From IMG/VR virus record IMGVR_UViG_3300025168_000062: 64,000 bases of DNA. The stretch is one strand, 5' to 3'. Positions within the stretch are counted from its first letter, which is position 1. Each line of letters opens with the position of its first letter. This document shows, piece after piece, positions 1 through 63,354 of the stretch. The notes beneath the pieces are model-generated. The model did not search any database. It worked only from the letters and a program-made list of their open reading frames with translations, and was not told the DNA's origin. A program made the position numbers and the translations under genes. The DNA is from an uncultured virus (IMG/VR IMGVR_UViG_3300025168_000062) (taxonomy: Duplodnaviria > Heunggongvirae > Uroviricota > Caudoviricetes).

Positions 1-68
1 CCTTTTTAATACCCCCGAGCCATAGAATGCTCTCTCAAGAGATACAGAGTTCTCAAGAGTCAGAATAC

Positions 69-78
69 TTTATATAGT
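69..78 (+). promoter_or_regulatory. Archaeal TATA box TTTATATAGT (early promoter)
   Basis: Identical 10-mer recurs at 2216 and 2631; each copy lies upstream of an ORF. Confidence 0.7.
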
Positions 79-131
79 TAAACCCCGATGAGGGAGTAGC
101 GGCGGAAGCCGAGGAAAGGTGTAAATGAGAA

Positions 132-266
132 ATGAAATTGAGAAGTAATGACAACGAGATAAGCGTGGAGACCCTTAGTGGACTCCTAAGCGGGCGAGTG
201 GCTTATAGAGCCCCCGTCCGGCCGAGTAAGGCAAAGACTCCCGAGATGGATGGGTGGTGGCTGTGA
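132..266 (+). CDS. Small hypothetical protein (44 aa)
   Basis: MKLRSNDNEISVETLSGLL...GWWL; downstream of TATA box; stop overlaps GTG of next ORF (GTGA). Confidence 0.55.
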   Translation: MKLRSNDNEISVETLSGLLSGRVAYRAPVRPSKAKTPEMDGWWL

Positions 267-1132
267 GCGAAGAGCAAGCAGACATACTGAGACATCACAA
301 CGAGACACGTTATTTAGAGTGCCTTAGCGCTCTATACAACGCGGAGTCTTGGACCTTCCAAGAGCCACAGATAGTAAGAGCATCCGACTATGACGGGAAC
401 GAGTTTGACAGAGAAAAACTCATCCCCGAGTTAATGCACTTGAGACGTAAAATAATTGAGCAGGTAAATGAGAACCCCAGAGCAATAGCATTCGGAGAAC
501 ATGACGAATGGCTCCTATTTCGGGAGATACCCGAGATGGAAGGAGCGTGGAATGTGTTGAGCGCGGCAACGTGGTCAACGACATATGAGTATATGGGGCA
601 TGGTCAGGAAAGACCAATCAGACATACGACCAACGAAAAAGTCCGAGCACAAGCGCGGGAGATACATCAATGGCTCGATAAAATAGAGGCCAATGCGAGA
701 AAGACCTATGAAGCAAGACGAGAACTTACTAGGGGGCTCACGAATTACGAGTTAGATGTAAGGGAGATAAACGGAGAAGAATGCACTCAGCGAGCGCTTG
801 ACGAAGAGTTAGAGAAAGCACGAGACAAGGCGCAAGATGCTCAGTATGATTACGAGAAAGCCAACCCCGAGTTCAGGAGAGTTGATGCAAGAGAAGTCTA
901 TTGGGAGATATACAATATAGAGCGGGCGCACACGACCCACCATACAATAGGTCGCCGTGTTTGCTCTAAGTGTGGCGGAGCATCAGAGCAAGGGTGGACT
1001 GAGTCCGAGGCAGACGGCTGTGCTCAAGATTGGGCGGTGACCAGCAGGAGTTGGGAGAACTGCCTCGAAGGTTGTGGTCGAAGCAACCAGAGACATCACA
1101 TCCACTCGTCAGGCGGGAGCTTTTACAACTGA
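254..1132 (+). CDS. Hypothetical acidic protein with C-terminal Cys/His zinc-binding motifs (start probably GTG 263)
   Basis: 292-aa ORF; CSKC and CLEGC motifs; Glu-rich. Confidence 0.75.
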   Translation: MVAVSEEQADILRHHNETRYLECLSALYNAESWTFQEPQIVRASDYDGNEFDREKLIPELMHLRRKIIEQVNENPRAIAFGEHDEWLLFREIPEMEGAWNVLSAATWSTTYEYMGHGQERPIRHTTNEKVRAQAREIHQWLDKIEANARKTYEARRELTRGLTNYELDVREINGEECTQRALDEELEKARDKAQDAQYDYEKANPEFRRVDAREVYWEIYNIERAHTTHHTIGRRVCSKCGGASEQGWTESEADGCAQDWAVTSRSWENCLEGCGRSNQRHHIHSSGGSFYN

Positions 1133-1430
1133 GCGCACAGGCACAAGAGTTCTGAGGGGCTCCGGATGCGCTGGGTCACACCTACGTAGAGGGGCTCCGC
1201 AGAGTTGTGGTCCCGCATAAGAATAGGACGGTCGCTCGATGAGACGGCTGTCGGGGGAATGGTGCTCTCACTTGGCGACCTTGCTCGGCCTCGGGTCTTT
1301 TGTTTGCTTTCTTTGAGAATGGCTCGAGGGGTCGCTAGTAAGCCACCGAGCGAGAATCGAGCCTTCTCTCTCTGGGGCGGGAGTTGACCCCCCTGACCTT
1401 TGTGCAAAACGCTCGAGCAACAAAGTTGCG

Positions 1431-1450
1431 TCGACCCCTCGAGGGGTCGA
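1431..1450. repeat. Perfect 20-bp palindrome TCGACCCCTCGAGGGGTCGA
   Basis: Equals its own reverse complement; lies between repeat copies 1 and 2. Confidence 0.9.
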
Positions 1451-1604
1451 GCTCTCTCTCAGGGGCGGACCACGAGGACTGTGACCTTTGTGCAAATGGC
1501 TCGAGCCCTAGATGGTTGAGAGAGTAACGCCGCCGGTCAGGGCGAGAGGGGAACAAGGCGCTCAAACGCCCCTTGCTCCTTTACGAAATACTCCAATTAA
1601 CTGC

Positions 1605-1946
1605 TCACAATGCCGCGCTCAGTTTAGCACACTCTTTGCACCAGCTCCCAGATTTCTTGCTCAATTTAATCGCAATTTTTCTAGTCGATGCTCCAATTGT
1701 GTTTCCGTGCTCGCAGACACTCAAATGCACAGCGAGACGCTTTTTTGACTCGTCCATGATTTTTAGCTCTTCGAAGTCACTCCCTTTGTGGGTCACACAT
1801 CCGACCCAGATTTTTGCAGGTCCCCTAACTTTTAGGGTCCATGCACCCGGCACTCCAATTTCTTCGCTCGTTTTTGCGTTCGCTGGACCAGTAACTCTTT
1901 TGCACTCTTTCCAATAATTTTCACTCTCAATTTCCATATTTTTCAC
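1605..1946 (-). CDS. Hypothetical protein with C-x-HG...WCxxC zinc-binding motif
   Basis: 113 aa; VCEHGNT...SWCKEC; minus-strand TATA-like box at 2000-2009. Confidence 0.7.
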   Translation of the reverse strand: MKNMEIESENYWKECKRVTGPANAKTSEEIGVPGAWTLKVRGPAKIWVGCVTHKGSDFEELKIMDESKKRLAVHLSVCEHGNTIGASTRKIAIKLSKKSGSWCKECAKLSAAL

Positions 1947-2215
1947 TCTGATTCCCAGATGACTCCCGGCTTTTCGGCCTACCTCGTCGTATCGTTAATC
2001 CTTTATAACTGTTTCGGACTCTTGAGCTCTGCTCGAGCACAGGCTACTCAGCGTTATGAGAACACACCCCACTCTACCGGGGTCGGTGGCGGTCGTTTGA
2101 GAAAATCACTACTCTGGGGCGGACCCCACCGAGAGAGCCCTTTTAGGGCCTCTCCCCGAGCCCACTCTCCCCGCGAGAGAGTCCGTATTGCTCGAGTGGT
2201 CGAGAGTCACAATAG

Positions 2216-2225
2216 TTTATATAGT
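2216..2225 (+). promoter_or_regulatory. TATA box TTTATATAGT
   Basis: Same motif as at 69; upstream of GGAGG SD and ORF 2275. Confidence 0.7.
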
Positions 2226-2274
2226 ATGGCTGACATGAGGAGGTAGCGCGAAAAGCGCAACGGAGGAATGAAAA

Positions 2275-2481
2275 ATGAGTAAAGTGAAAATTGCAGAAAT
2301 GAGCGTAAAGGTGGTCCAACACCTCTTGAGGGAAGGTCGTTGGTTAGAAGAAAAAGGGAGGTATGAGCACGAGCGAATAGTGACCACGATAGTTAGGTCA
2401 CCAATTGACCTCGGTATTGATGCTCCCCTAAGTTCTCACGAGTTAGAGGCAATCTTGAGCCAACACTTGGCGAGCCTGTAA
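2275..2481 (+). CDS. Small hypothetical protein
   Basis: 68 aa; GGAGG SD, promoter upstream, hairpin downstream. Confidence 0.7.
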   Translation: MSKVKIAEMSVKVVQHLLREGRWLEEKGRYEHERIVTTIVRSPIDLGIDAPLSSHELEAILSQHLASL

Positions 2482-2505
2482 GCAAGAGACAGAGAACAAC
2501 GTAAG

Positions 2506-2531
2506 CGAGGCGTCTCAATAGGGGCGTCTCG
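2506..2531 (+). terminator. GC-rich hairpin downstream of ORF 2275-2481
   Basis: CGAGGCGTCTC-AATA-GGGGCGTCTCG pairs fully on + strand using G-U pairs. Confidence 0.45.
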
Positions 2532-2659
2532 TGTTTCCTGAGCACAGGGGCGGGACCAACACCCCCGGACCTTTGAAGGTCTCGGTCGAGATATATTCAC
2601 CTCCAGATGAGGGGTCGTGAGTCCACTATGTTTATATAGTATGACGAATATGGTAGATT

Positions 2660-2881
2660 ATGGAAGAATGCTGTGCTTGCGACGAACCTCAGGGAAAACT
2701 AACTCACTACCAAACTCTATATATGATTGAATCAGTCGGCAAGGAAGGTCTAAAACTTGGGTCGATAGTTGATGGTCTAGTTGTTGGGTCTGTGCAAACA
2801 CTCCTATTATGTGAGGCCTGTTGGGTCCATATATATGTCGATGAATCAGATGCACTCAGGGATGAAGAAATGGTCCCCTAA
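2660..2881 (+). CDS. Small zinc-finger protein, leaderless
   Basis: CCAC and CEAC motifs; TATA box at 2631, 29 nt before ATG; T-run after stop. Confidence 0.65.
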   Translation: MEECCACDEPQGKLTHYQTLYMIESVGKEGLKLGSIVDGLVVGSVQTLLLCEACWVHIYVDESDALRDEEMVP

Positions 2882-3052
2882 TCTTTTTTCTCTCCACAGG
2901 GGCGGGACCTATGTGCCGAGACCTTTGAAGTTCTCAGGTCGAGCAAAACTACACACAGGGGCGGGACCTTGACCGCGAGACCTTTGAAGTTCTAGGCTCG
3001 AGCATGTAGGCTAGCGGGAGAGCTCGAGAGAGCTCGTCTTTTAGAGAGAGAG

Positions 3053-4264
3053 TGGTGGGATTAATAATCCGCACCCCCGCATATGAAAGAATCATATCCG
3101 CCATGACATTTCGGGCAGATATTCGGTAATCCTGAAAAACTGTTTTCAGGCATCCATATTTCGCAATTTAAGCATTCATTTAATTCAATTATTTCCATGA
3201 TTGCCCGAATTATCCTAGATGCTAATAATTAGCAAATAGAAGGCATTCTAGGCCATGATACGATAAGTTAGGCCGGATGATACAGTTAGCGAATACGCTT
3301 CACCATATCACCCGATAATGATGACTTCTTGATGCCTGCTAAATGCGGAATCATCCCGTAAAGGATTGTGTTCCATAAATCCGCATTCAGTGGGTATTGG
3401 TAAGGGTTGAATCATATCTGACTAATCAGACTATCACACCACGTTGAACCCATTAAAGGACACAAGTCATCTTAATTCTATTACCAAGATTAAGATTAAT
3501 CAAAGTGAAGCAATACGCGCCGAAACACATCCATCGCACCAACCGGCTTTCAGACTTTTTGTCTGTGCCTTCTGATGTGCTGTAAGTGCATTCTTATTAG
3601 CCGCCGCAGATAGGATTTGCATCCCACCCATAGAAGCCGCATGACGCGTTTTGACATCCTTAACCGTGCCATGTGTAAAGCACCACATAGCGAAGCAGGC
3701 ACTTTCAGGGACATGAATGTCAAGATGGTGCAAAGCCGCATCCTTAACAGTCTTGAACGAAGTATCATACTTAGTTAATTTTGTCAAATCAATCAAACCA
3801 ATCTGCGCACCATTCGCCGCCTTTCGGCTTCTAATGGGTAACGCCGCAATCCCGCAATCTGCGCGGGGCTTACAATTAGTATCATTGAATTGTTTCACTG
3901 ATAAATCCTTAATCTTAGTAATAGGCTGTTTCTTAGCCATACTTATCATTAATTTATCATATTGTTTTCTATCACTGGCAATCAAGCCAGTGCTGAAACT
4001 TAGGTTATCGTTTCTTTAGCCGATTATGTTCTTTAGGATAGTTCTAAGCCCGTTCTAAGGGGCGTTTCAGTTCCTAAATGTTCAATGTATCGGCTTACCC
4101 ATTTTCGGCCTTGAAATGGCCTGTATTTGGGCTTCGATTTGATGCCGTGATTAGCGGCAACAGGCAGATTCACAATCCTTCCAATTGATGAAAGAAAACG
4201 ATTTGCTTATAAAGAACTGCCAAAAATAGCCGAAAAAGCACCCTAGTGGTCGCCTAGTGCGACC
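3053..4264. other. 1.2-kb segment completely lacking GAG/CTC
   Basis: Line-by-line reading: last GAG ends at 3052, next begins at 4265. Confidence 0.9.
3500..3985 (-). CDS. Basic hypothetical protein with C-xx-HG...WCxxC motif (start possibly ATG 3940)
   Basis: WCFTHGT...GWCDGC; only one Glu in 161 aa. Confidence 0.7.
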   Translation of the reverse strand: MIASDRKQYDKLMISMAKKQPITKIKDLSVKQFNDTNCKPRADCGIAALPIRSRKAANGAQIGLIDLTKLTKYDTSFKTVKDAALHHLDIHVPESACFAMWCFTHGTVKDVKTRHAASMGGMQILSAAANKNALTAHQKAQTKSLKAGWCDGCVSARIASL

Positions 4265-4288
4265 GAGAACTTTTTATTATTTTTTTTG
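4248..4288 (+). terminator. Hairpin GGTCGC-CTAGT-GCGACC followed by T-tracts
   Basis: Perfect 6-bp stem then TTTTTATTATTTTTTTT at the edge of the GAG-free segment. Confidence 0.4.
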
Positions 4289-4428
4289 AGTTAATTTTAT
4301 AAACATAGTTTTATTTAGATAACGTCCGTAAGTTAGAGCGTGTTCGATGAAGATATGACATGGGATGTGACCATTGTATGGCTTTTGCTTTGGGGAGACT
4401 GTATGTATCTTTTGATATGGTGGCTTCT

Positions 4429-5934
4429 TTAGAATATTCGATAACGGCCGCTTCGCGGTCTGCTTCCGTATCTTGATTTCTTTTCCTTACCATCATTCTT
4501 CAACCAAGTGCTTCCTTCAATCTTCGCGGTAGCAATAGGCAAACTTGATTCGTGCGAATAAAATTGGTCGATAGCATGAGCAAGAGCCATCACACAATCG
4601 TTATGCCGACCCACATCTGCAATATCCCCCTGCTTCCAAACATGGTGGTCAAGTTCTTCTAGGACAATATTCACGGTCTTTCTTGTTTTATCATCACCAT
4701 AGGGGAAATGAACGCGCTGTTGCTCGAACCAAACGCGCAATCTATTCAAAAGAGCCTGCTTAACTAACTTATTACTGACTTTTGAGCCCCTAAAGTCCAC
4801 CATCGCGCCCCTCTCAAGCAGTAGTTGTTCGTAGAGCCTCTGAAAGCCTGCTTCTTCACAAGCAAACGCCGGTCCTTCATATTTTTTACACATACTGATT
4901 ATTTGGTCGACCTGCTTCGCAGGAGGAAAATCATTACGTCTCCACATATCAACAAAATGAATATCTCCTTGCTTATCTTGCCTTACAACAACCATAACTG
5001 AAAAATCTCTTCCTAATCCGTGTGCAGGGTCGAATCCAATTGCATATTTACCCTCTATTTCTTTTCCTTTCATCAGTATATCGGTCGATTCTAAATTAGC
5101 CCTTGTGTCATACCTAGAATATACCTGTGCATCCACATCTACCACCTTGCATAAGTATTCTTGAACAAATGCTAAATCTCCCATAGCAGATTTCTGTTCC
5201 ATCAAAAACTCCATTGACCTATGTTCAGGCCAAAGACAGGCTAAATCCACATTATCGGGGTCAGCCTTCCATTCATCCCAATTAGGAAATGCCGAGCCAT
5301 ACCATGTTTTCCACGCATCGTTCTCTAGCATTTCACTATGATAAAGGTCTGTCATTCCCATAGGTGTTCCGACACAATACATCCATGTTCCCGGAGAAAG
5401 CATAGGGGTAATCTTTTTTCTAAACCAATGCCTAGTGGATTCGGGAGTAATATCCCCTGTATCATCAAGAACGTCGTCCATAGCAATACAAGCCGGATGC
5501 TCACCACGAATAGCAGAACCTATACCGGTAGCCTTAATCCATGCCCCATTTGTGAATCTTAAATTAAGTTTTCCACCTCTTCGCATATCTATAAACTTTC
5601 TAAGTTCTCTATGGCGCATCATATCGCCTCGTATTTCTTCTAGCCTATTTGCCGCTAATTCTTTAGAAGCAGAGAATAACCATATAGTAAAGGGCTTATC
5701 TCGCCATGTGTTGAATAAACATTGATGTAGCATAACCATTCTCAATGTAGTGGATTTACTATGGTCACGTGGAGCAATAATACAAACACGATGGACTTGC
5801 GAATCACCCCTGTCTCTATATAGTTTATCCCATTCTGCTATATGGTCGCCCCATATATATCCGGTCCATTCATAAAAATGCTTAAAATCGTTTCTTGACC
5901 GTTCAATGTTGAAGCCTCTTAGAATATCACTCAT
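4429..5934 (-). CDS. terL: Terminase large subunit
   Basis: Walker A-like APRDHSKST, Walker B IAMDD, GTP motif, C-terminal RNase H-like GFDPA...DFS...HNDCVMALA. Confidence 0.93.
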   Translation of the reverse strand: MSDILRGFNIERSRNDFKHFYEWTGYIWGDHIAEWDKLYRDRGDSQVHRVCIIAPRDHSKSTTLRMVMLHQCLFNTWRDKPFTIWLFSASKELAANRLEEIRGDMMRHRELRKFIDMRRGGKLNLRFTNGAWIKATGIGSAIRGEHPACIAMDDVLDDTGDITPESTRHWFRKKITPMLSPGTWMYCVGTPMGMTDLYHSEMLENDAWKTWYGSAFPNWDEWKADPDNVDLACLWPEHRSMEFLMEQKSAMGDLAFVQEYLCKVVDVDAQVYSRYDTRANLESTDILMKGKEIEGKYAIGFDPAHGLGRDFSVMVVVRQDKQGDIHFVDMWRRNDFPPAKQVDQIISMCKKYEGPAFACEEAGFQRLYEQLLLERGAMVDFRGSKVSNKLVKQALLNRLRVWFEQQRVHFPYGDDKTRKTVNIVLEELDHHVWKQGDIADVGRHNDCVMALAHAIDQFYSHESSLPIATAKIEGSTWLKNDGKEKKSRYGSRPRSGRYRIF

Positions 5935-6058
5935 ACTTTACACCTCCGCTTATGCCACAAACCGGACATAGCCCTAATATATCTAAAAATATGTCATGGT
6001 CCATATAAGGGGCGGAGATAGAGTTCTCTCCGCAATATTGACAATAAATCACGTTCAT
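5927..6058 (-). CDS. Small zinc-finger protein (43 aa)
   Basis: MNVIYCQYCG...LCPVCG; overlaps both neighbours; contains the GGAGGTG SD of terL. Confidence 0.65.
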   Translation of the reverse strand: MNVIYCQYCGENSISAPYMDHDIFLDILGLCPVCGISGGVKYE

Positions 6059-7554
6059 TCCTCTATAACAGGTTTGAACATACTTCCAATCATACCTTCT
6101 TCGCGGTCTATGATATGTGCAGACATTCCCGCTTGTGAAAGATACCCTTTTCTAAAGTGCCAACGGTCGTGACCGGAAAGCGAAGGTAATTGAATACAAA
6201 ATGCACCACCATGTTCTTTTAGTGCTTGGTGATGAAGATGACCTGTGAACCAAACACGGTATCTGCATTGACCCCACTTTTCCCATGCTTCTCTAGCCAT
6301 AGTGCTAGGTAAAGCATTTGCTTTTACTCCATCCCCATGTGTAAATCCTAAAAGTGCATTTCCATACACAACATACTGCCTATTCATGTTAGGGTCAAGA
6401 ATTACTTCACAATCCTCACAATCTTTGTATGTTGCCTTAAGATAAAGCCCTAATGCTAAGGTAGAGTGCATATCGTGATTACCTGCCATGAATACAATCT
6501 TAACAGGCGCAACACTTCTCAACATATCTATATGCTCCCTTGCTAATTCGCAACCATCTAGGAGAATCTGTGCCGGACTTCCATATCTATCCTGAGCAGT
6601 GCCTTTTGTTGTTGTCCCTAAATCATTATCCACATGAAACCAATCTGAGCCTGCGGCAACAATAATTTTTTCAGGAGCTCCCGGTAGTCTTGAAACCAAT
6701 GCGCTTGTTGCATCATGGAGTCTTTTTCTTGCTTCATCAAAATCATACCGTTCCCCTACTTCATCTTCCCAACCATATTTACCGTAATGGAGGTCAGTTG
6801 GGGATATAACAAGTGCGTAAGGCTTAGTTTTTTGCAGAACTAACTTTTTAACAGGTCTATTCTTAGGATGATGGACTTTTAGATGCTCGATAAACGTATC
6901 TTCAAAGTTTCTCCATTTATTCGCATCTTTCTGAATCTCATCCCACTTTTTCTTTTCGTATGTTATGTGTAGCGACCTTCTTCTTCGTAATAACAAATCA
7001 TCCACTAAATCCTCAACAGAATCAGCAAGTAATAGTTCTTCATCAGTAAATGGGTCCATGTCGTGCGTCCAACCATAAATACGTCTATACTCGTCAAACC
7101 ACATTCTAGGAATCTGAAAATCACGAGACATTTGCCCGACACTTGATGATTTATTAACCATATTACTATATGCCGTTTTCATAGCCCTGTGAACATCACC
7201 GCTCACTGTTATTGGCTTATTACCTGCCGCTCTAATGAAGGTCACATAAACATCGGTTTCAGAATTGTAATAATAAGGCTCATCAGAAATCCAAGTTGCA
7301 TCTGCATCATCTAGGCTTAACTGTTTTTCTGCAAAAGGGTCTAGTTGTGGGGATTTATCGGGGTATAACTGTCTGAATCGTGAGACTGTGCTTTTCCACG
7401 ATGCAACAGTCTTAGGTCCTTCACCATTAGTATTATAGTTAATATCCCATAGGTAGGTGGCGAATTGAACATCAGTTCCCGTCCAATTCTCTAAATGCGG
7501 GGTTATTCTTCCCAATGTTTTTTCTCGCATACCTTGTCGTCTTTCAGTTACCAT
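6055..7554 (-). CDS. Calcineurin-like metallophosphoesterase with uncharacterised N-terminal half
   Basis: DLHYG, GSDWFH, GNHD, HGD and GHLH motifs. Confidence 0.85.
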   Translation of the reverse strand: MVTERRQGMREKTLGRITPHLENWTGTDVQFATYLWDINYNTNGEGPKTVASWKSTVSRFRQLYPDKSPQLDPFAEKQLSLDDADATWISDEPYYYNSETDVYVTFIRAAGNKPITVSGDVHRAMKTAYSNMVNKSSSVGQMSRDFQIPRMWFDEYRRIYGWTHDMDPFTDEELLLADSVEDLVDDLLLRRRRSLHITYEKKKWDEIQKDANKWRNFEDTFIEHLKVHHPKNRPVKKLVLQKTKPYALVISPTDLHYGKYGWEDEVGERYDFDEARKRLHDATSALVSRLPGAPEKIIVAAGSDWFHVDNDLGTTTKGTAQDRYGSPAQILLDGCELAREHIDMLRSVAPVKIVFMAGNHDMHSTLALGLYLKATYKDCEDCEVILDPNMNRQYVVYGNALLGFTHGDGVKANALPSTMAREAWEKWGQCRYRVWFTGHLHHQALKEHGGAFCIQLPSLSGHDRWHFRKGYLSQAGMSAHIIDREEGMIGSMFKPVIEE

Positions 7555-7633
7555 GAGTGTCGCATATAGTTTCCATACTTAAGTATATCGCATATAAGAA
7601 GGCTTTTAACACTAGCGGCCTATCAAATGGGGT

Positions 7634-9049
7634 ATGGCTGAACGCGGATTGTTTAATTTCTTTCGTCGAAGTGCGTCGGAGACCGGAGAAAAAGACGGAG
7701 AAAAGCGACTTACACGTGTAGGGATGAATAGTGGACTAAGTTTCGGTCAAGTGGCGGGGCTAACGGATATTTTTGAAGATACAGGTCCACTTAGAGACCA
7801 TAAGAAGGCATTTAGAAGAACAAAGTATGATGATGAGTTTGATTTGTATGATGAAATGTTAAAACTAGACCCTGAATTGAATGGTGCGGTCCGTTCAGTA
7901 AGCCTGACCGCTAACAATTGGGAAATTGATTATTCCAAAGGTAAAAATAGAAAAATAAGAAATGCTATTGAACAGTTCGTATATTCTGTTGATTTTGATG
8001 ACATTCTGATTAATATGCTTCGCAACCTAATGGTCTATGGTAATGACATGAATAAGTTAGTGGGTAAGACAGGAGTTGGTATAACAGAAGTCCAATCCCT
8101 CCCTATCCACCAAATGACTATCAAAGATGAAAGGGGCATACAACCACCATCAGTAACTAGGGAATCCCCTATCATGGATGCTCGGGTATATTTGATGCAA
8201 GAGCAAGGGACTTACCCACAATCATTCCCTGCTGATGAAGTATGGCATACTCGTATAGATTATAGAAGCAATTGGTTTCAAGACAGGCTCGGCCGTTGGT
8301 CATACGGCATTTGGGGTGCGTCAAGGTTCTCAAGCCTTAAGCAACCCATTCGAGCCAAGTATAACATGATTAATAATAGAATAGCACTTGAAGAAGCATT
8401 AACTAAACAATACATAACAATTGATGCGGCGGCGGTCGAACATATAATGGACCCCGATGAACAGCAAGAAAGACTATCACATATCATGGGTCAAGTGGCA
8501 GAACTGCTAGAAGGACTAAGAGGCGACCAAATACCAATTTTACCTTCTTATGTTGAAATGCACCACGTTGATTTGAAAAATACAATCCCCGACCCCACAG
8601 CGTTCTTAGATATAGTAAATGGGGATATATCCGCAGTTTTACAAGTGCCTAGAGTAGCATCCGGCCAAGAAAGGGGCTCAACATTCGCCGCAACCTATTC
8701 CGCGTCTATGTGGAGTATTAATGCAATTAGAAGGCTTCAAGCAGTAGCGATAGAATCATGTTGTCATCTCTTTTTGAAACATCTCGAACTATTAGGTATA
8801 GCCGCAGAAAAAACGGACCTGCCGGTAATGACTTTCAAACCAATAGAAGAAGAATCTCGTGGTGAATCAATGAAAAGGGCAACTACCGGATATACTATGG
8901 GTATAATGACCAAAAACGAAGCGAGAGATTTGTTAAACATGGAAAGTGTTAAAGGAGGCGAGGATTTTAAGCCTGAGCCAGAGATAGCACCGAAAGGTCC
9001 TAATCCGCGCGATAATACTACTAAACAAGATAAAGAGGTGACTGAGTAA
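7634..9049 (+). CDS. Portal protein
   Basis: 471 aa, first gene of head module, helical portal-like size and context. Confidence 0.8.
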   Translation: MAERGLFNFFRRSASETGEKDGEKRLTRVGMNSGLSFGQVAGLTDIFEDTGPLRDHKKAFRRTKYDDEFDLYDEMLKLDPELNGAVRSVSLTANNWEIDYSKGKNRKIRNAIEQFVYSVDFDDILINMLRNLMVYGNDMNKLVGKTGVGITEVQSLPIHQMTIKDERGIQPPSVTRESPIMDARVYLMQEQGTYPQSFPADEVWHTRIDYRSNWFQDRLGRWSYGIWGASRFSSLKQPIRAKYNMINNRIALEEALTKQYITIDAAAVEHIMDPDEQQERLSHIMGQVAELLEGLRGDQIPILPSYVEMHHVDLKNTIPDPTAFLDIVNGDISAVLQVPRVASGQERGSTFAATYSASMWSINAIRRLQAVAIESCCHLFLKHLELLGIAAEKTDLPVMTFKPIEEESRGESMKRATTGYTMGIMTKNEARDLLNMESVKGGEDFKPEPEIAPKGPNPRDNTTKQDKEVTE

Positions 9050-12685: not shown

Positions 12686-15298
12686 ATGGCTGATTTTTAT
12701 TGGATTGGAGATGGGGCTGATAATTATGCTTCTACTGTTAGTAATTGGCACGTTGGCTCTGCAACAGGCGCAAACGCATTTGCCGCTCCGGGCTCTTCTG
12801 ATACCGTTCATTTTGGCTCTTATTCCACGACTCTATGTAGTTGGAATATAACATCTATCAATAGAATAGAGATGGAAGTGGATTCGTCAGACAGAAGATT
12901 TAATTCCTATCTCGATATTAATTGTGATGTTTCGCTGAATGGTTTAATACTAGACGGTGAATTACGTTGTCTTGCTAACCCATTTACACTAAACTTTAAC
13001 GGCACACCCCCCTATAATGGAAGATATGTTAAGAATGGTAAATACGCCGTATTACATTCAACTGCTTTACTCCAATTAAACTATAAGTTAATAGGAGGAG
13101 TTTTTTACTTAGATACAGGACCGCATCCTACGGTGACCTTTAGCACAGGAACATTTAGGCCGCAGTTTGTAACTCCTTATTCTAATTTTAATTCTGATGA
13201 TTCCCCTAGAACAATAATAGATGTTTTCAAATTACAAATCGCATCCACATTCACAGCAGTAGAGCCTTCGGGTTCTAATAGAAGCGATAGGCAAGTCAAA
13301 ATAAGAATAGGAGATGTTCACTCATCCTCTTTTACTTGCGCTATTAATACCCTAAACTTTGGTTTCGCCACATTAGCATTACCCGGTCAGTCAGCAGGCA
13401 CGAGAACTGTTCCTGTAAGTAATAATTTTTATAGTGGTAGAACGTATGGTGGGACTTCGGGGCAATTTACTGCAAAGATGTATGGGCTTCATATTTACAA
13501 TCCGACTCCTGTAACCTACAAGGGCGTAAATGCTTTGTATGCTAAAGTATTCGATGATTCACGTTTAAGCCTACATACATTGGAAATAGATGCGGGTTGT
13601 ATGTTGTTAGGAGATATAAAATCAGAAATAGAATTAGTATCTCTTCCTATAATAAATGGAAGTATAGGTAATTTTACACAAGTCTCATCTAATCTTTATC
13701 GTGCGGTAGAGGATAGTGGACCTTTGGAACAATCATTAACACCAATTTTTCTTGGTGGAACAGGTGTAAGCACAATAGGAACTTCAAATCAAGTGCTTCG
13801 GGTTAATTCAGGAGCAACAGGCTTAGAGTGGGCAACAGTAACAAGTGGTGGTCCAACAGGGGCTACTGGTCCTACTGGGGGTTCAGGTCCAACCGGACCT
13901 GCTGGAGCAGACGGAACAACAGGACCACAAGGTCCTAGTGGAGCCGCAGGACCAACTGGTCCTACGGGACCTACTGGTAATAACGGTTCTACTGGTCCCA
14001 CAGGACCTGCCGGTGCTAGTGGACTTACTGGAAATACAGGGGCTACTGGCTCACCCGGAGCAACAGGTCCCACAGGATTAACAGGAGCGGCTGGAGCCGC
14101 CGGAAGCACAGGACCTGCTGGCTCAACCGGAGCCGCTGGACCTACTGGCTCAACGGGTCCTACTGGATTAACGGGAGCAACCGGACCTACTGGTCCTTCG
14201 GGAGCAGATGGTAATGACGGCTCTGCTGGTCCAACCGGACCTACTGGATTAACAGGGGCTACTGGAGCGACTGGTCCTGCGGGGGTTCAAGGAGCAACAG
14301 GATTAACAGGTGCTCAGGGATTAACAGGGGCTACTGGTCCAACGGGACCTACTGGGGCAGACTCAACAGTCGCAGGACCTACTGGACCTAGTGGTAATAC
14401 GGGACCTACTGGAAGTGCAGGTGCTACTGGTCCAACCGGACCCACAGGTGCTTCGGGGTCAGACGGGGCAGATTCAACGGTTGCTGGTCCAGCAGGAGCA
14501 ACAGGTCCTACTGGTAATACTGGACCTACTGGTCCTATTGGCTTAACAGGAGCCGCAGGACCTGCCGGTAATACCGGAGCAACGGGAGCGGCGGGGGCAG
14601 ATGGTGAAACAGGACCTACTGGCTCAACAGGGGGAACGGGTTCAACAGGACCGCAAGGTCCTACTGGACCAGCAGGTATTACAGGACCACAGGGTCCGGC
14701 AGGGAATACAGGTGCGGCTGGTCCTACTGGCTCGGCCGGTCCCACAGGACCTACGGGGGCTACTGGCTCAACAGGACCTAATGGTGATACGGGAGCAATA
14801 GGACCTTTGGGTCCTACGGGTCCAACAGGTTTGGCAGGGGCTACTGGTCCAGCATCAACAGTTGCAGGTCCCACAGGACCTACTGGCTCAACAGGCTCAA
14901 CAGGAGCCACCGGACCGCAAGGCGGAATAGGATTAACTGGACCAGCAGGTCCAAGCGGCTCAACTGGACCACAAGGGGTTGCGGGTGCTAGTGGACCAAC
15001 AGGTCCTACTGGCTCTACTGGACCCACAGGAAGTTCCGGTTCAACAGGAAGTCAAGGTAATGCAGGTCCCACAGGTTCAGGCGGACCGTCTGGTCCGACC
15101 GGAGCAAGCGGACCTACTGGTCCCACAGGCTCAACTGGAGCAACAGGTCCGACAGGGGCTACTGGCTCGCAAGGTCCTGCTGGACCTATTGGTCCTCAAG
15201 GCACACTTTCAGCAGAAGGTAAGGGAAGCCTTGATATGGGTCCGTTGGTCGTAAGTGGAACTCAGAGTGTGATAACTTTTGGGTCATTAGTAGTTTAG
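12686..15298 (+). CDS. Collagen-like virion fibre protein 1
   Basis: About 390-aa N-terminal beta domain, then about 450 aa of Gly-X-Y (GPT/GAT/GST). Confidence 0.9.
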
Positions 15299-15400
15299 GG
15301 GTGAGTTAGAGGTGAGAAGATAATGGATGATTTAGGATGTGGAATTGAAGCCCATCCTTTTATCATATCAATTATGAAGATGATAGGTATAGTGATTTAG

Positions 15401-21400: not shown

Positions 21401-22687
21401 GCTCTTACTTCCTTAACAAGTGCTGGTCAAATAACTGCAACAGGATATGGGGCAGGTAATAGTTTTACATCAGGCTCGGGTTCAGTTTTCAATGGTTATT
21501 TATCTGGTCAAGGAATTACCACAGCACATTGGAATGTTGCCGTTGGGTGGTATACTCTAGCGGCGGCTAATAATGGAGGGTCTGGTAACGTAGCAATAGG
21601 TTACTCAGTTCTTCAAGCGGGAACAGGAGCAAGTAATAACGTAGCAATAGGGTATGTAAGTATGCACTCTATGCAGACTGGCGACTACAACGTAGCAGTT
21701 GGAGATATGACTCTTAAATCCACAACAACAGGGCAAAACAATGTAGCGGTTGGAAGGTCGGCACTTCAACAGGGTGATGCAGACCTTTCTAACAATACAG
21801 CGGTAGGTGCTTATGCGGGAACATACTCTAACGGGCATCATAATACATACATAGGTTATCAAACAGGACCGCAGAGCGGCACAACTAACACAGGAACATA
21901 TAACGTAGCAATAGGATTCGGAGCAGGTGATGCACAGACCACAGCAGTTGGGAATGTTGTTGGTGGTAAGAATGCAGGAGGCTCATTAAACACAGGTGGA
22001 TATAACGTAGGATTTGGGTATGAAACTTTAGACTTAGCAACCACAGCACAAGGAAACGTAGCGATAGGTTGGGGCGCGGCAGGTGGAGCAACATACACAG
22101 GCGGGGAAGCAGTTATGATTGGAAGAATGGCGGGTTATGATTTAACAAGTGCTAATCATTCAGTCTTTATTGGTATGTCTGCGGGTGCAAACGTGAATAC
22201 AGGAGACAAAAATATCTGTATAGGATATAACTCTGGAGATAATATCACAAGTGGCTCAAACAACGTAGTAATAGGTAGCGGTGATGTTCCGAGCGCAACA
22301 GGTAGTAATCAATTACTAATAGCATCCGGTGGTGGTTCACCTAAATGGATAACAGGAGATTCGGATGGTAATGTAACACTACCTAATGACTTTAGAGCAT
22401 ATTCCGGTGCTTTGGTAAGTATAGCATCATCCACACAATTAACTGCCGCAGACCACGCAGGTAAATACATTAGAGCATGGGCTAACAACCAAACACTAAC
22501 ACTACCAGCAACACCGGTCGCAGGTGAACAATACATAATAGTAAGTGATACAACAAACACGGTCACGATTGCACCGACCGGAACAGATAATATCAACGGG
22601 GCTAACGCAAGTCAAACAATAACAACTAGGTATCAAGTCAAAACCTTTATAGCGGTCACGTCCGGAGCATGGTTATGTATAGGATGA
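15401..22687 (+). CDS. Giant modular collagen-like fibre protein 2 (2428 aa)
   Basis: Gly-X-Y tracts interrupted by three CBM5/12-like W...Y.DD.V.Y...SYIC...HTS modules, two FGGA.F.Y...TF.RTGD domains and eight AGFGTPT...TAKVFxFxIP repeats; C-terminal N-x-A-x-G beta-roll repeats. Confidence 0.92.
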
Positions 22688-48164: not shown

Positions 48165-49093
48165 TCTGTATAGTTTCTTTTTTCAAAGTAAGAGGCTTTT
48201 AATTCTTTCGTCATTTTCATAGCGGGTATAGTCTTGTATATCTTATTTACAACAGACGGTCTTAGTTTCTGCTTTGCTATCTTACTGGCCGCACCCCTAA
48301 CTGCCGCACCTCTATTTACATCAATATTATTATGGCCTATTTTTTCTTCCCATGCTTTTGAAGCATAGTGGAGAAGAACAGGTGTCATATTCTTTATTAA
48401 CTTATTATCGTAGTCTTTACAGGCCGTATCATATATTAGACCGTTGTCAGTCCTATGTGAAAGATGATACCCTATACATTTATCCCCTTCCATAATGGTC
48501 AGAAGAAGTGCATCTTCTAATTGTGAATAGGCATTGAACGAGTCAATAAAGAAATTAGATTTCCATGATTTCTTATCCCTTTGTTTTAACCATCGGCCGG
48601 TCAAAGCATTACACGATTCTAGCGTTTTGTATGGGGTGTTGCCCCAATGAACCTGTATATCTATCGCGTCTGAGTCGATAAGCGACTCAGCCTTGTTACA
48701 TGGCTTTCTTAATTGGTTCTTATTCACCCCGTATCTATCGCTGAATGCCCTAAGATTGTATATGTATTCTTCATTATCAAACACACATTTGTCACTCGAA
48801 TACCCATAATCTATGAGGCTAGGAATACCTGCATCGTTTAATTTACTCACCACATCATAACTTGATGGTAGGATAGCATACAATACTTGAGTTCCCATAA
48901 TCTGTCTATCTTTTAGAACGACTAATTCATCGTCAATATATCCTAACTTGAATACATGAGGTTGGTGCATCAATCTAAGGGGGGATTCATAGTATCTAAT
49001 TAACCTACCACAAGTCATAGATGAAAGCCCTTGATAGAACTCGGTATAGTTTTCTAATGTTAGTGGCTTGAACTCGCTTAAGTCTAAAGCCAT
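48155..49093 (-). CDS. DUF2156-like (aminoacyl-transferase C-terminal, GNAT fold) protein
   Basis: EYIY...G.NK..LRK..N and VNRG...K.KLRP patterns resemble this family; recognised by eye only. Confidence 0.6.
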   Translation of the reverse strand: MALDLSEFKPLTLENYTEFYQGLSSMTCGRLIRYYESPLRLMHQPHVFKLGYIDDELVVLKDRQIMGTQVLYAILPSSYDVVSKLNDAGIPSLIDYGYSSDKCVFDNEEYIYNLRAFSDRYGVNKNQLRKPCNKAESLIDSDAIDIQVHWGNTPYKTLESCNALTGRWLKQRDKKSWKSNFFIDSFNAYSQLEDALLLTIMEGDKCIGYHLSHRTDNGLIYDTACKDYDNKLIKNMTPVLLHYASKAWEEKIGHNNIDVNRGAAVRGAASKIAKQKLRPSVVNKIYKTIPAMKMTKELKASYFEKRNYTEWL

Positions 49094-50262
49094 TCAATAT
49101 CCTCTGTCTTATCTTCAACATCAAGGTAATGAAACTCATCCTGTATAGTCTTTGGGTCACCCTTGAAGAAGATTAAAACATTCTGATGAGTTTTTCCTAA
49201 CTTTCTATTGTTAGCAAACTGTTTGTGGACTCTTATAGGAAGGCTACCTGCAACCGTGATTAAGATACATTCATTGTATAAGGTAGCACCTGCTGATTGG
49301 AAAGCATCAATAGTGTCGCTTACAAAGTTTCGATAGAATCCTTTTTCATTCCTAAAGTCTCCAACAACAAACACTGCGAACCTATTAGGTTTGAGCATAT
49401 CAACAGAACGCTGAATAATATTTCTATATGAATCTAAAAACTCGTGGTGTTCCATAGTGGATAAATCCCTATCATCTTCTGAATAGACTTCAAGGTCACC
49501 ATAGGGCGGGCATGAAAATACCATATCCCACTCGCCACCTATCTTATCTTTTATGTCTAGCGCATCTCCAACAACCCAATTAGGCATAGGGAAATCTGTA
49601 TTACCTACTAACTCTAACCCTTGAATCCTATTAGCCTGAACTTGGTCGGAACGTAATTCCATACCCGCATACTGATGATTACCATGTGCGGCAACAATTC
49701 CTCTTACAGAACCACCGCAGAAAGGGTCAAGAATATTACCACCTTCGGGGCAAAACCAATTATACATTAATTCAGTTAATACAGGGTCGAATATAGAAGT
49801 GCCTGTTGCTCTTTTCTGAAAGCCATCTTCTTCTTTTAGGGCGGCACTTGTTGTTCCGTCCTCATTCTTATGAAGCCATGCACTATTTTTACCTGTGCCT
49901 CCTCCGGGTATTGCTCTAGTATCTTTCTTAGTTTCATTCCATGTTGCTTTGTCTCCAATAGCGAATGTCTTAGCATTACCTTTTGAATCTCCACCTACCG
50001 ATACTTCTTCATCACTTAAAAGAAATCCTTCTTTGACAAGTTGGTCTACATCATATTCTTTTTTACCAAACATATACTTCATGTTCGACTTTGACATAGC
50101 AATAAGTGCTTCACCCCTACCTAGTTCTGAACGAATACCTTTACGAGTCCACCAACGCTTTCGGTCTTGCCAATAGCCTTGGCGAGCATCTAATATACTG
50201 AAAGGCGGTGCGCCATATCTCTTTTTTAGTGGTGTTCTTATTATATGTTTTTCTAAACTCAT
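49084..50262 (-). CDS. DNA amino-methyltransferase (m6A/m4C type)
   Basis: Motif I LDPFCGGS then motif IV FSCPPY. Confidence 0.88.
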   Translation of the reverse strand: MSLEKHIIRTPLKKRYGAPPFSILDARQGYWQDRKRWWTRKGIRSELGRGEALIAMSKSNMKYMFGKKEYDVDQLVKEGFLLSDEEVSVGGDSKGNAKTFAIGDKATWNETKKDTRAIPGGGTGKNSAWLHKNEDGTTSAALKEEDGFQKRATGTSIFDPVLTELMYNWFCPEGGNILDPFCGGSVRGIVAAHGNHQYAGMELRSDQVQANRIQGLELVGNTDFPMPNWVVGDALDIKDKIGGEWDMVFSCPPYGDLEVYSEDDRDLSTMEHHEFLDSYRNIIQRSVDMLKPNRFAVFVVGDFRNEKGFYRNFVSDTIDAFQSAGATLYNECILITVAGSLPIRVHKQFANNRKLGKTHQNVLIFFKGDPKTIQDEFHYLDVEDKTEDIEWL

Positions 50263-61399: not shown

Positions 61400-61431
61400 A
61401 TAATTGATGCTAAACCTATTTACTTATAGTC

Positions 61432-63340: not shown

Positions 63341-63354
63341 ATTAAATCTCCGTT

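What the first reader, a model, noticed from the sequence alone, without database searches (positions are those of the whole stretch)
3053..4264. A 1.2-kb GAG/CTC-free window next to the terminase gene: candidate unmodified DNA landmark
Seen: no GAG on either strand in 1212 bp, whereas base composition predicts roughly 25-30. The void covers coding and non-coding DNA, and its one gene has a single Glu (GAA). It starts sharply after a GAGAGAGAG run ending at 3052 and ends at a hairpin/T-tract just downstream of terL. Known: methylation state can gate packaging (phage P1 pac cleavage depends on Dam sites). Inference: the virus modifies GAG genome-wide and keeps this segment unmodifiable so that it can act as a packaging-initiation/terminus site, first-entering DNA or first-transcribed region. 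I know no described system of this form.
Basis: partly seen in the sequence, partly recalled or inferred. Interest (0 to 1): 0.93.

Follow-up and report, generated by a model that had tools for sequence, protein, structure and literature searches.

The report
Motif-blank gene cassette beside terminase
A marine tailed virus and its close relatives keep one small gene unit next to the DNA-packaging gene completely free of the three-letter word GAG and three four-letter words on both DNA strands, which suggests that some enzyme reads these words on the viral DNA and must not touch this one unit.

Summary
Window 3053-4264 has no GAG/CTC (0 against about 23 expected; next largest gap 297 bp). No other trinucleotide is abnormal there.

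The same void lies downstream of TerL in every relative that carries the enclosed gene. There are 10 distinct versions, mostly not alignable as DNA. Pooled over 11,424 bp, GAG is 0 against 217 expected. The voids also lack GACC (4 against 56), CTAC (6 against 51) and CGAC (2 against 35.5). TerL genes of the same contigs show none of this. A neutral-divergence simulation shows the absence is actively maintained.

The void is one expression unit:
- a TATA-like box 31-34 nt inside the edge;
- a strongly structured leader;
- a basic, probably zinc-binding orphan protein ("X");
- variable micro-ORFs;
- often an oligo-T run at the far edge.

Beyond it lies an accessory domain with about three times the usual GAG density.

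Best reading (about 0.4): a duplex-DNA-level, site-free early cassette. This resembles the restriction-site-free leading regions of T5, T7 and Murciavirus, but at 3-4 bp resolution.

Neither modification nor genome ends could be tested.

The parts
3053..4264 (.). Void: no GAG/CTC on either strand. Also no CTAC/GTAG. GACC/GGTC and CGAC/GTCG occur only in the edge hairpin.
4248..4264 (.). Boundary hairpin GGTCGC-ctagt-GCGACC at the TerL-proximal edge. It is built from the avoided words. The first GAG follows at 4265-4267.
   Evidence: sequence. Homologous word-rich boundary element in relatives.
4205..4216 (-). TATA-like element (TTCTTTATA on the minus strand), inferred promoter of the unit. The last avoided word lies 31-34 nt upstream of it in 8 of 8 voids that have this edge.
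   Evidence: Promoter function is inferred, not shown.
3941..4185 (-). About 245 nt leader upstream of gene X, predicted to be strongly structured as RNA.
   Evidence: MFE -68 kcal/mol, z -4.63, 0 of 200 shuffles as stable. Sliding z reaches -5.9 here against about 0 in TerL. Three-sequence consensus fold has 12 of 46 pairs with compensatory change. No Rfam match.
3500..3940 (-). Gene X: 146 aa, basic (pI 9.7), with invariant C87, T89, H90, R99, W134, C135, C138 (CxxH ... CxxC, probable zinc site). Clade-restricted orphan.
   Evidence: 10 representatives in 1.84 billion proteins; AF2 pLDDT 80; no structural match; no family; pI.
3061..3198 (-). Possible 45-aa micro-ORF with CxxC...CxxC. Not conserved in relatives, which carry other micro-ORFs here. 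It lies in a structured 3' part (3080-3440).
   Evidence: ORFs. (z -4.4 to -4.5). Coding status uncertain.
3043..3052 (.). (AG)n run at the distal edge. GAGAG or CTCTC runs stand at this edge in most relatives.
2895..3004 (+). Two 51-nt direct repeats (CACAGGGGCGGGACC...GAGACCTTTGAAGTTCT...GGTCGAGCA) just outside the distal edge, with a third copy at 2543-2593. The homologous element GGTCC(C)GCCCCTGTG(GAGAG) and AAAGGTC arrays flank the void in relatives.
4429..5934 (-). Large terminase subunit. It is on the same strand as the void unit, which starts 165 nt downstream of its stop.
1..3052 (.). GAG-dense accessory domain: 66-73 GAG/CTC per kb against 11-26 in the core, o/e 1.52, Glu GAG > GAA. 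Small ORFs with their own TATA promoters. It continues at least 2.4 kb left of the window. Window 61000-64000 is dense too.
   Evidence: In relative G002 the domain is about 16 kb.
49084..50262 (-). ParB-like + N6/N4 DNA methyltransferase, a candidate reader or marker of short words. Its link to the void is weak and inferential.

Best explanation
The void is a site-free ('blank') expression cassette maintained by purifying selection at the level of duplex DNA.

The cassette is one autonomous unit:
- a TATA-like promoter;
- a structured leader of about 245 nt;
- the basic, probably zinc-binding orphan protein X;
- a structured 3' part with variable micro-ORFs;
- usually an oligo-T stop.

It is kept free, on both strands, of four short asymmetric words: GAG, GACC, CGAC and CTAC. 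The rest of the genome carries these words at ordinary density. The adjoining accessory domain carries GAG at about three times that density.

The likeliest reason is that an activity that acts at these words on DNA must be unable to touch this unit while it is expressed. That activity could cut, nick or add a bulky mark.

The unit would then be an immediate-early, first-exposed cassette. Its product X, a nucleic-acid-binding protein, would act before the rest of the genome is at risk or usable. This is the logic of the restriction-site-free leading regions of T5 (first-step-transfer DNA), T7 (gene 0.3 region) and Murciavirus. Here it is applied to 3-4 bp words and to a whole promoter-to-terminator unit.

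Shown:
- the void;
- its four words;
- its conservation under divergence;
- its coincidence with the unit;
- the properties of X.

Inferred:
- that the unit is early or first-exposed;
- what X does;
For: 1. Strand symmetry. GAG and CTC, and each tetramer with its complement, are all absent. About half of the 217 expected GAG/CTC would fall on each strand.
2. Specificity. The TerL genes of the same 8 loci (12,003 bp) show no depletion of these four words. They show only the genome-wide GATC, AGCT and CCAG avoidance.
3. Active maintenance. There are 10 distinct voids, G+C 0.38-0.61, and only two pairs are alignable by blastn. X is 21-44% identical among homologues, while TerL is 80-95% identical in the void-bearing loci. 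In a simulation of the 161 substitutions between the L001 and L002 voids, a mean of 12.1 new GAG/CTC and 22 new sites of the four words arose, and 0 of 2000 runs gave none.
4. Unit-sized extent. The last avoided word lies 31-34 nt upstream of the TATA-like box in 8 of 8 voids. A run of five or more T ends 0-20 nt before the first reappearing word in 6 of 9.
5. Cassette behaviour. Contig L028 (1346 nt) is exactly the void. L028 and L029 start at the same base, and L004 ends in the proximal boundary element.
6. Context. The unit lies 165-215 nt downstream of TerL on the same strand. That is the junction between the conserved late module and a hypervariable accessory domain. In G002 that domain holds an ArdC-like anti-restriction protein and an SF2 helicase among orphan ORFs.
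7. Precedent. A leading injected region that lacks an R-M motif present elsewhere decides sensitivity, and such regions are hypervariable and anti-defence-rich (PMC12455610, abstract read). T5 and BF23 inject pre-early first-step-transfer DNA first and resist EcoRI (PMC10644984, passages).
8. The virus already avoids GATC, GTAC and AGCT genome-wide. These are motifs reported as modified in marine archaeal MAGs (PMC8919816, passages). Site avoidance is therefore a strategy this lineage uses.
Against: - No nuclease or restriction system with a 3-bp GAG specificity is known to me, and four asymmetric specificities in one host is a lot.
- GAG is enriched (o/e 1.41-1.52, about 3-fold denser) in the adjoining accessory domain, and GACC is enriched genome-wide (o/e 1.27-1.51). 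That is odd if these words are targets of a host nuclease.
- The void, X, the dense domain and the methyltransferase co-occur in the clade. The complete void-less relative G004 lacks all of them. This points to a virus-encoded reader at least as much as a host one.
- X is strongly basic (pI 9.3-10.6 in 16 of 16), unlike acidic DNA-mimic anti-restriction proteins (recalled).
- Nothing shows that this DNA enters or is transcribed first. No raw reads or RNA data were available.
- Contig breaks at the cassette edges are equally expected from strain variation in assembly graphs.
- 3 of 9 distal edges have no nearby T run.
Confidence: 0.4

Rival explanations
1. The virus itself marks these words genome-wide, for example with its ParB-N6/N4 methyltransferase or another modification. 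The cassette is kept unmarkable so that it stays readable, or acts as a landmark, in fully marked virion DNA. It would be the first-transcribed unit, or a packaging or terminus landmark.
For: - Duplex-level, strand-symmetric avoidance.
- The avoided word set is identical in all 10 voids although X has diverged to 21-44% identity. That argues for a conserved reader. The methyltransferase is 92% identical between the window and G002, more than TerL at 86%.
- The methyltransferase is present in 2 of 2 near-complete void-bearing genomes. It is absent from the void-less G004 (100% complete) and G005 (73% complete).
- All four words contain an A.
- The three-state GAG landscape (void 0, core o/e 0.73-0.79, accessory domain 1.41-1.52) is clade-specific.
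Against: - The methyltransferase's specificity is unknown.
- The association rests on 2 against 2 genomes.
- N6-methyladenine does not ordinarily block transcription (recalled).
- If marks blocked expression, the GAG-densest domain, which holds an ArdC-like gene, would be the most blocked on entry.
- A packaging site of 1.0-1.46 kb without sequence conservation is implausible.
- P1 pac needs methylated sites rather than lacking them (recalled).
- No GAG, GACC, CGAC or CTAC motif appears in the main text of the marine methylome study. Its supplementary motif tables were not read.
Confidence: 0.2
2. X itself reads the words. It would be a small zinc-binding DNA-binding regulator or nickase next to terminase. 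Its own unit is purged of its sites because nascent X is concentrated at its own gene. The GAG-dense accessory domain would be its main target, as a block-wise switch or nicking field.
For: - X, the void and the dense domain co-occur strictly. 10 of 10 distinct voids hold X, and 11 of 11 metagenome loci with X have the void (several of these duplicate IMG/VR contigs). The void-less relatives examined have no dense domain, and X is absent from G004, the only one screened for it.
- X is basic in 16 of 16 homologues, with invariant CxxH...CxxC and Arg residues.
- The AF2 model has a beta-hairpin followed by a helix around the CxTH motif.
- Phage HNH or zinc-ribbon nickases with 3-7 bp specificity are encoded next to cos and terminase genes (PMC3592412, abstract).
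Against: - No HNH or other nuclease family is detected by Pfam, PHROGs, NCBIfam, PDB sequence search, Foldseek or VIA (best Z 4.0).
- His100, next to the invariant Arg99, is not invariant: the L007 homologue has Ala there and P0010 and P0011 appear to lack it on my reading of their sequences.
- A reader that has diverged to 21-44% identity would be expected to shift specificity, yet the avoided set is constant.
- A nuclease cutting every 45 bp would destroy the rest of the genome unless it is protected.
Confidence: 0.15
3. RNA-level escape. The transcript must survive a sequence-specific endoribonuclease, in the manner of MazF-resistant ACA-less mRNAs or T4 RegB cutting GGAG in early mRNAs. 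GAG-rich accessory mRNAs would be its preferred substrates.
For: - The void matches a transcription unit.
- The non-coding parts are predicted to be highly structured RNA.
- In the dense domain GAG is enriched mainly on the sense strand: 54.6 against 12.5 per kb in ORF 254-1132.
- MazF and RegB precedents (recalled).
Against: - The complement of every word is equally absent from the sense strand. An RNA reader does not need that unless the whole unit is also transcribed antisense.
- Eight RNA words would have to be avoided.
Confidence: 0.05
4. A single-strand-level reader during replication. The words would be initiation sites of a primase or targets of a single-stranded-DNA enzyme. The cassette would then be a priming-free or enzyme-free zone on both strands.
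For: - Primases of T7 (GTC), T4 (GTT/GCT) and pRN1 (GTG) recognise trinucleotides (recalled).
- GGTC and GTCG are among the avoided words.
- There is strand symmetry.
- In G002 the GAG skew in the dense domain switches strand near 38.5 kb.
Against: - The skew switch coincides with gene orientation, so it is not independent evidence.
- No primase was assigned in the window.
- There is no reason why a priming-free zone should match a promoter-to-terminator unit.
Confidence: 0.05
5. Not selection. The cause would be a local mutational process such as deaminase-type erosion of the words, a compositional artefact, or mis-assembly.
For: GAA and AAG are the most over-represented trinucleotides in the voids, at 1.42 and 1.44.
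Against: - That excess is forced arithmetically once GAG is absent, and GAT and TAG are also raised.
- The substitution spectrum between the L001 and L002 voids is not transition-dominated: 73 of 161.
- Voids span G+C 0.38-0.61.
- The other trinucleotides are normal.
- Independent assemblies and samples agree.
Confidence: 0.02

Closest known systems
Restriction-site-free leading (first-injected) regions of phages: Murciavirus/Autographiviridae (PMC12455610), T5 and BF23 first-step-transfer DNA (PMC10644984; Davison & Brunel 1979, recalled), T7 gene 0.3 region (recalled)
   Same: - A short segment lacks recognition words that are common elsewhere in the genome.
- The segment is hypervariable between relatives.
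- It carries its own promoter and small orphan genes.
- It lies next to the packaging end of the map; in T7 the early region follows the terminase gene across the terminal repeat (recalled).
- Size is about 1 kb, compared with about 850 bp for T7's first-entering DNA (recalled).
   Different: - The words here are 3-4 bp and comprise four asymmetric families, not one 6-13 bp R-M site.
- The absence is total and matches a promoter-to-terminator unit.
- The host is probably archaeal: TATA promoters, PolB and RFC.
- Neither entry order nor a cognate host system is known.
- A neighbouring domain is enriched in the main word.
Phage HNH/zinc-ribbon nicking endonucleases encoded next to cos and terminase genes, 3-7 bp specificity (PMC3592412, abstract)
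   Same: - A small protein with CxxC/CxxH-type zinc ligands encoded directly beside the terminase gene.
- Very short asymmetric DNA words are the relevant scale.
   Different: - No HNH signature or family match in X.
- Those nickases are not reported, to my knowledge, to sit in a site-free cassette.
- X's activity is unknown.
Chlorovirus frequent-cutting nickase/methyltransferase pairs (Nt.CviPII CCD, Nt.CviQII RAG). Papers seen as a search listing only; the specificities are recalled.
   Same: Virus-encoded enzymes that read 3-nt words, paired with a protecting methyltransferase. The window encodes an N6/N4 methyltransferase.
   Different: - AAG, half of RAG, is over-represented in the voids (1.44), so the word set differs.
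- No nickase has been identified.
- No blank cassette is described for chloroviruses, to my knowledge.
Methylation-gated packaging site of phage P1 (pac with Dam sites; recalled)
   Same: A link between DNA marking state and a site near the terminase genes.
   Different: - P1 pac is a short conserved site that contains the methylation words.
- This is a 1.0-1.46 kb non-conserved unit that lacks them.
Endoribonuclease-resistant transcripts (MazF and ACA-less mRNAs; T4 RegB GGAG in early mRNAs; recalled)
   Same: A transcript-sized unit lacks a 3-4 nt word. An early gene block is rich in the word on the sense strand.
   Different: The complements are absent as well, which points to duplex DNA.

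Membership tests
Leading/first-injected restriction-proof region (T5 FST, T7 early, Murciavirus) | Segment lacks recognition words that occur elsewhere in the same genome | tested here: met
   In the window void, GAG is 0 against 23 expected, with 1427 sites in the 64 kb window. Pooled over 10 voids: GAG 0 against 217, GACC 4 against 56, CTAC 6 against 51, CGAC 2 against 35.5.
Leading/first-injected restriction-proof region (T5 FST, T7 early, Murciavirus) | Segment is at the genome end that enters the cell first | not testable with these tools
   Only assembled contigs of public runs were available, with no raw reads. Contig breaks at the cassette edges are ambiguous.
Leading/first-injected restriction-proof region (T5 FST, T7 early, Murciavirus) | The avoided words are the specificity of a host restriction system | not testable with these tools
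   Host unknown. The marine methylome paper's main text lists GATC, AGCT and GTAC for archaeal MAGs but none of the four words. Its supplements were not read.
Leading/first-injected restriction-proof region (T5 FST, T7 early, Murciavirus) | Hypervariable between relatives, with its own early promoter and anti-defence genes | tested here: inconclusive
   Hypervariable: yes. A TATA-like box is conserved. The timing of expression and the function of X are unknown.
Terminase-adjacent HNH/zinc-ribbon nicking endonucleases | HNH (His-Asn-His) catalytic motif or family match | tested here: inconclusive
   No match in Pfam, PHROGs, NCBIfam or PDB sequences. Foldseek found none at E<=0.001, and the best VIA Z was 4.0.
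Terminase-adjacent HNH/zinc-ribbon nicking endonucleases | Zinc-binding Cys/His pairs, and a gene next to terminase | tested here: met
   Invariant C87-x2-H90 and C135-x2-C138 in 16 of 16 homologues. The gene lies 489 nt downstream of the TerL stop on the same strand. Metal binding itself is not shown.
Methylation-gated pac site (P1 type) | Cluster of methyltransferase target words inside a short conserved site | tested here: not met
   The segment lacks the words, and relatives do not align across most of it.
RNase-escape transcript (MazF/RegB logic) | Word absent from the transcribed sense only | tested here: not met
   Words and their complements are both absent.
Chlorovirus-type RAG nickase/methylase pair | Avoided or marked word is RAG (AAG and GAG) | tested here: not met
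   AAG is over-represented in the voids (423 observed against 294 expected).

The most novel reading that the evidence does not exclude
This virus clade uses a short-word DNA marking or reading system of its own that partitions the genome into three states. The system would comprise a conserved ParB-methyltransferase or another enzyme, with X as partner.

The three states are:
- a blank cassette with 0 sites;
- a sparse core (GAG o/e 0.73-0.79);
- a dense accessory domain of about 16 kb (o/e 1.4-1.5, one GAG per 12-20 bp).

Word density would then act as a cis-code that sets when, or whether, each block can be transcribed, cut or recombined. The blank cassette would be the one unit that is always readable.
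Probability: 0.2. Interest if true: 0.92.

Novelty: new variant of a known kind. Interest (0 to 1): 0.85.

Why it matters
Local absence of restriction sites in first-injected DNA is known for a few model phages and single long motifs. Here a whole promoter-to-terminator unit is blank for a trinucleotide and three tetranucleotides on both strands. It has stayed blank through enough divergence to erase DNA alignability, and it lies beside a domain where the same trinucleotide is three times denser.

This implies an unidentified enzyme, of the host or the virus, that reads 3-4 bp words on DNA in an abundant group of uncultured marine viruses, probably archaeal.

It also gives a purely computational handle. 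The word set and the blank unit can be used to look for that enzyme, for immediate-early or anti-defence genes, and possibly for the genome end.

The same scan, for unit-sized multi-word voids, could be run on any viral genome collection.

Tried and rejected
- No whole genome is held for the window. Relatives and the near-identical record G001 were used instead.
- Public runs: no RNA holder is listed, and all holders are kept as assembled contigs. Expression, strand, read ends and modification could therefore not be examined.
- tRNA scan: none. Rfam: nothing in window 1-8000, and in five relatives' loci only a sub-threshold chance hit.
- Gene X:
  - No Pfam, PHROGs or NCBIfam family.
  - No PDB sequence match.
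  - The first AF2 model was poor (pLDDT 51.6). The second was usable (80.2).
  - Foldseek PDB and BFVD gave nothing at E<=0.001, and VIA wide gave a best Z of 4.0.
  - The ESM Atlas gave no usable hit.
- The methyltransferase has no PDB sequence match, and only a sub-threshold NCBIfam hit to an adenine methylase.
- TerL relatives at 55-65% identity (L011-L014, L017, L018) show no comparable void of any 3- or 4-mer near TerL. A 502-bp GAG gap in L012 lies inside a phosphoesterase gene and was judged unrelated.
- I tried to merge the four words into one degenerate motif (SKAS, CKAS, KAS). This failed because GGAC is enriched and CTAG is present in the voids.
- The promoter-upstream element GGTCGNGAGTC is not above chance window-wide (27 matches against 25 expected).
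- Earlier findings of this scan: nothing by place, words or sequence.
- Literature searches for a described motif-blank region found no report of such a unit. One search turned up the Murciavirus leading-region paper.
- Composition, chimera and deaminase-erosion explanations were rejected.
Full report
**Observation**

The window holds 1427 GAG/CTC sites, with a mean spacing of 44.8 bp. The largest gap is 1215 bp, between sites starting at 3050 and 4265; the next largest is 297 bp.

A first-order Markov model of the segment expects 23.1 sites and none is seen. The other 31 strand-merged trinucleotides lie at 0.77-1.37 of expectation.

With local composition control in sliding windows, this is the only complete trinucleotide void in the window. 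Stronger but partial depletions of CCC/GGG belong to the collagen-like tail-fibre genes at 12.7-22.7 kb.

A Logan contig of run X1, which may be the source sample, spans window 1-9000. Runs X2 and X3, from other samples, hold void pieces without differences. The segment is therefore not a chimera.

**What the surroundings are**

The window is a tailed virus with these genes:
- TerL at 4429-5934 (-).
- An Mre11-like exonuclease at 6055-7554 (-).
- Portal at 7634-9049 (+).
- Tail tube and tape-measure genes, and collagen-like fibres.
- A replication block: family B polymerase, RFC-like clamp loader, nucleases, a nucleoside-deoxyribosyltransferase-like protein, and a ParB-like + N6/N4 methyltransferase at 49084-50262.

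The nearest TerL in the GenBank phage collection is below 27% identical, and the hits include haloarchaeal viruses. TTTATATA promoters with ATG a few tens of bases downstream suggest an archaeal host. I did not test membership in the magroviruses.

GATC and GTAC are absent from all 64 kb, and AGCT has 16 sites. GATC, AGCT and GTAC are among the motifs reported as modified in marine archaeal MAGs (PMC8919816, passages).

**The void is conserved without sequence conservation**

TerL found 19 related loci in IMG/VR.
- All seven with TerL at least 80% identical and with downstream flank have a GAG/CTC void of 796 bp (cut off by the contig end) to 1463 bp. It begins 49-215 nt after TerL.
- The six with TerL 55-65% identical have none.
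- Every metagenome locus found with the enclosed protein has the void: 11 of 11, although several duplicate the IMG/VR contigs.

After removing duplicates there are 10 distinct voids. Only L001/L002 (85-88%) and L003/L005 (78% over 426 nt) are alignable by blastn. Their G+C ranges from 0.38 to 0.61.

Pooled over 11,424 bp, GAG/CTC is 0 against 217 expected.

I applied the 161 substitutions that separate the L001 and L002 voids at random. This created a mean of 12.1 GAG/CTC sites, and 0 of 2000 runs created none. The absence is therefore maintained by selection, not inherited by identity.

**More words are missing**

In the pooled voids:

| Word | Observed | Expected |
|---|---|---|
| GACC/GGTC | 4 | 56 |
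| CTAC/GTAG | 6 | 51 |
| CGAC/GTCG | 2 | 35.5 |

The few exceptions lie within about 45 nt of an edge.

The TerL genes of the same 8 loci (12,003 bp) show none of these depletions. They show only the genome-wide GATC, AGCT and CCAG avoidance.

Outside the void these words are not avoided. GACC is enriched in the core (o/e 1.27-1.51) and CGAC is about 1.1. I could not merge the four words into one degenerate motif.

**Anatomy**

Each void holds a homologous gene X on the TerL strand.
- It is 135-157 aa, excluding one 127-aa representative that lacks the first ten profile positions. Identity to the window's copy is 21-44%.
- R37, R39, C87, T89, H90, R99, W134, C135, C138 and A144 are invariant in 16 of 16 homologues. 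The C-terminus reads GWCxGCVSAxxAS(L/V).
- All 16 are basic, with pI 9.3-10.6.
- A profile search of 1.84 billion representatives found 10 proteins, all of this family.
- No family, PDB sequence or fold match was found. The AF2 model has pLDDT 80.2 and the best VIA Z is 4.0.
- In 8 homologues Glu is GAA 23 and GAG 0, and Leu CTC is 0. In the TerL genes of the same loci Glu is GAA 183 and GAG 68, and Leu CTC is 36.

The proximal edge is a conserved element rich in the avoided words. The last word lies 31-34 nt upstream of a TATA-like TTCTTTATA in 8 of 8 voids.

A leader of about 245 nt follows. It is predicted to be strongly structured (z -4.63). In sliding windows, z is -4.4 to -5.9 in the non-coding parts of the void and about 0 in TerL. 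A three-sequence consensus fold has 12 of 46 pairs with compensatory changes, which is thin evidence.

After X come variable micro-ORFs.

At the far edge, a run of five or more T ends 0-20 nt before the first reappearing word in 6 of 9 voids.

Just outside lie GAGAG/CTCTC runs and repeats of GGTCC(C)GCCCCTGTG and AAAGGTC.

Contig L028 is exactly the void. L028 and L029 start at the same base, and L004 ends in the proximal element. This reflects either cassette-like variability between conserved flanks or a physical end.

**A dense domain next door**

Distal to the void, GAG/CTC rises to 30-50 per 500 bp, against about 10 in the core, in every void-bearing relative with enough flank.

In the complete relative G002 (75,290 nt), the domain runs from about 33 to 49 kb, falling from 83 to 46 sites per kb. 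It is 3.05-fold denser than the rest at nearly the same G+C (0.44 against 0.415), with o/e 1.41 against 0.73. No other trinucleotide shifts as much.

In the window it covers 1-3052, at least 2.4 kb further left in G001, and 61-64 kb.

GAG lies mostly on the sense strand and in all codon frames.

In G002 the domain holds orphan ORFs, an SF2 helicase and an ArdC-like anti-restriction protein.

The complete void-less relative G004 lacks all of these features:
- no X;
- no dense domain (GAG o/e 0.94);
- no ParB-methyltransferase.

**Interpretation**

Strand symmetry argues for a reader of duplex DNA, or of both single strands, rather than of the mRNA. Zero tolerance, unit-sized extent, hypervariability and position beside the packaging gene fit a site-free early or first-exposed cassette. 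The precedents are Murciavirus (PMC12455610, abstract), T5 and BF23 (PMC10644984, passages) and T7 (recalled).

Several points count against a purely host-nuclease reading:
- The words are very short.
- GAG is enriched next door.
- GACC is enriched genome-wide.
- The void co-occurs in the clade with X and a conserved methyltransferase.

The latter has the terminase-adjacent zinc-ribbon and HNH nickases of 3-7 bp specificity as its nearest analogue (PMC3592412, abstract).

The constant word set across strongly diverged X favours a conserved reader: a host enzyme, or the viral methyltransferase that is 92% identical between the window and G002.

RNA-level escape, a priming-free zone, and mutational or artefactual origins are less likely.

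**What is not known**

- Whether any of the words is modified.
- Where the genome ends lie.
- When the unit is expressed.
- What X and the structured RNA parts do.

None of these could be tested with contig-only public data.

I found no report of such a unit in two full-text searches. That is not proof of absence.

Noticed in passing
window 1-64000; G002 and G004 (L038-L045): Palindromic tetramers are avoided genome-wide, and the set differs by strain. In the window GATC has 0 sites, GTAC 0 and AGCT 16, of which 7 lie in 1-3031. In G002 GATC has 0, AGCT 12 and GCGC only 2 in 75 kb, while GTAC is normal. In G004 GATC and AGCT both have 0. CCAG/CTGG is also depleted in TerL genes (12 against 63).
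   Followed up: partly
window 1-3052 and 61000-64000; G002 33-49 kb (L043/L044): An accessory domain of about 16 kb has about 3-fold GAG/CTC density at unchanged G+C. GAG falls on the sense strand in all frames, and density declines with distance from the void. CGAC (2.5x) and TCGA (3x) are also raised.
   Followed up: partly
L044:4802-6034 and L044:2940-4571 (G002): An ArdC-like anti-restriction protein (ArdcN + zincin peptidase) and an SF2 (ResIII/Helicase_C) helicase lie inside the GAG-dense domain of the relative.
   Followed up: no
window 69, 2216, 2631 (+) and 63460 (-): All four exact TTTATATA boxes of the window lie in the GAG-dense parts. Each has a GAG-containing element (GGTCG[AT]GAGTC or CTCAAGAG) about 8-10 nt upstream and an ATG about 13-20 nt downstream. 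This looks like one promoter class.
   Followed up: partly
window 1370-1506, 2112-2143, 2543-2593, 2895-3004: A repeated element (C[AT]C[AT]GGGGCGG..., GACCTTTG..., CTCGAGC) follows several small genes of the dense domain. It could be a terminator or a protein-binding site. It is conserved next to the void in relatives.
   Followed up: partly
window 3941-4185 and 3080-3440 (-): The non-coding parts of the void unit are predicted to fold far better than shuffles (z down to -5.9). UUCG-type hairpins appear in relatives' leaders. No Rfam family matches.
   Followed up: partly
window 12686-22687: Two collagen-repeat tail-fibre genes (870 and 2428 aa; the larger also has CBM_5_12 modules) are G+C-rich and strongly depleted in CCC/GGG.
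   Followed up: no
window 32995-41991: A 2998-aa ORF without any Pfam match follows the tape-measure-like gene. It is 59% identical in G002.
   Followed up: no
window 47302-50262: A gene run is present in the window and G002 and, apart from the HTH protein (38% identical match), absent from the void-less G004. It comprises a nucleoside-deoxyribosyltransferase-like protein, a small HTH protein (matching the HTH part of HNH-endonuclease PHROGs), a 312-aa orphan and the ParB-methyltransferase. It may be a DNA-modification module.
   Followed up: partly
L012:5086-5588 (G004): In the void-less relative the largest GAG/CTC gap (502 bp, about 13 mean spacings) lies inside a calcineurin-like phosphoesterase gene just upstream of TerL. 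I judged it probably unrelated.
   Followed up: partly
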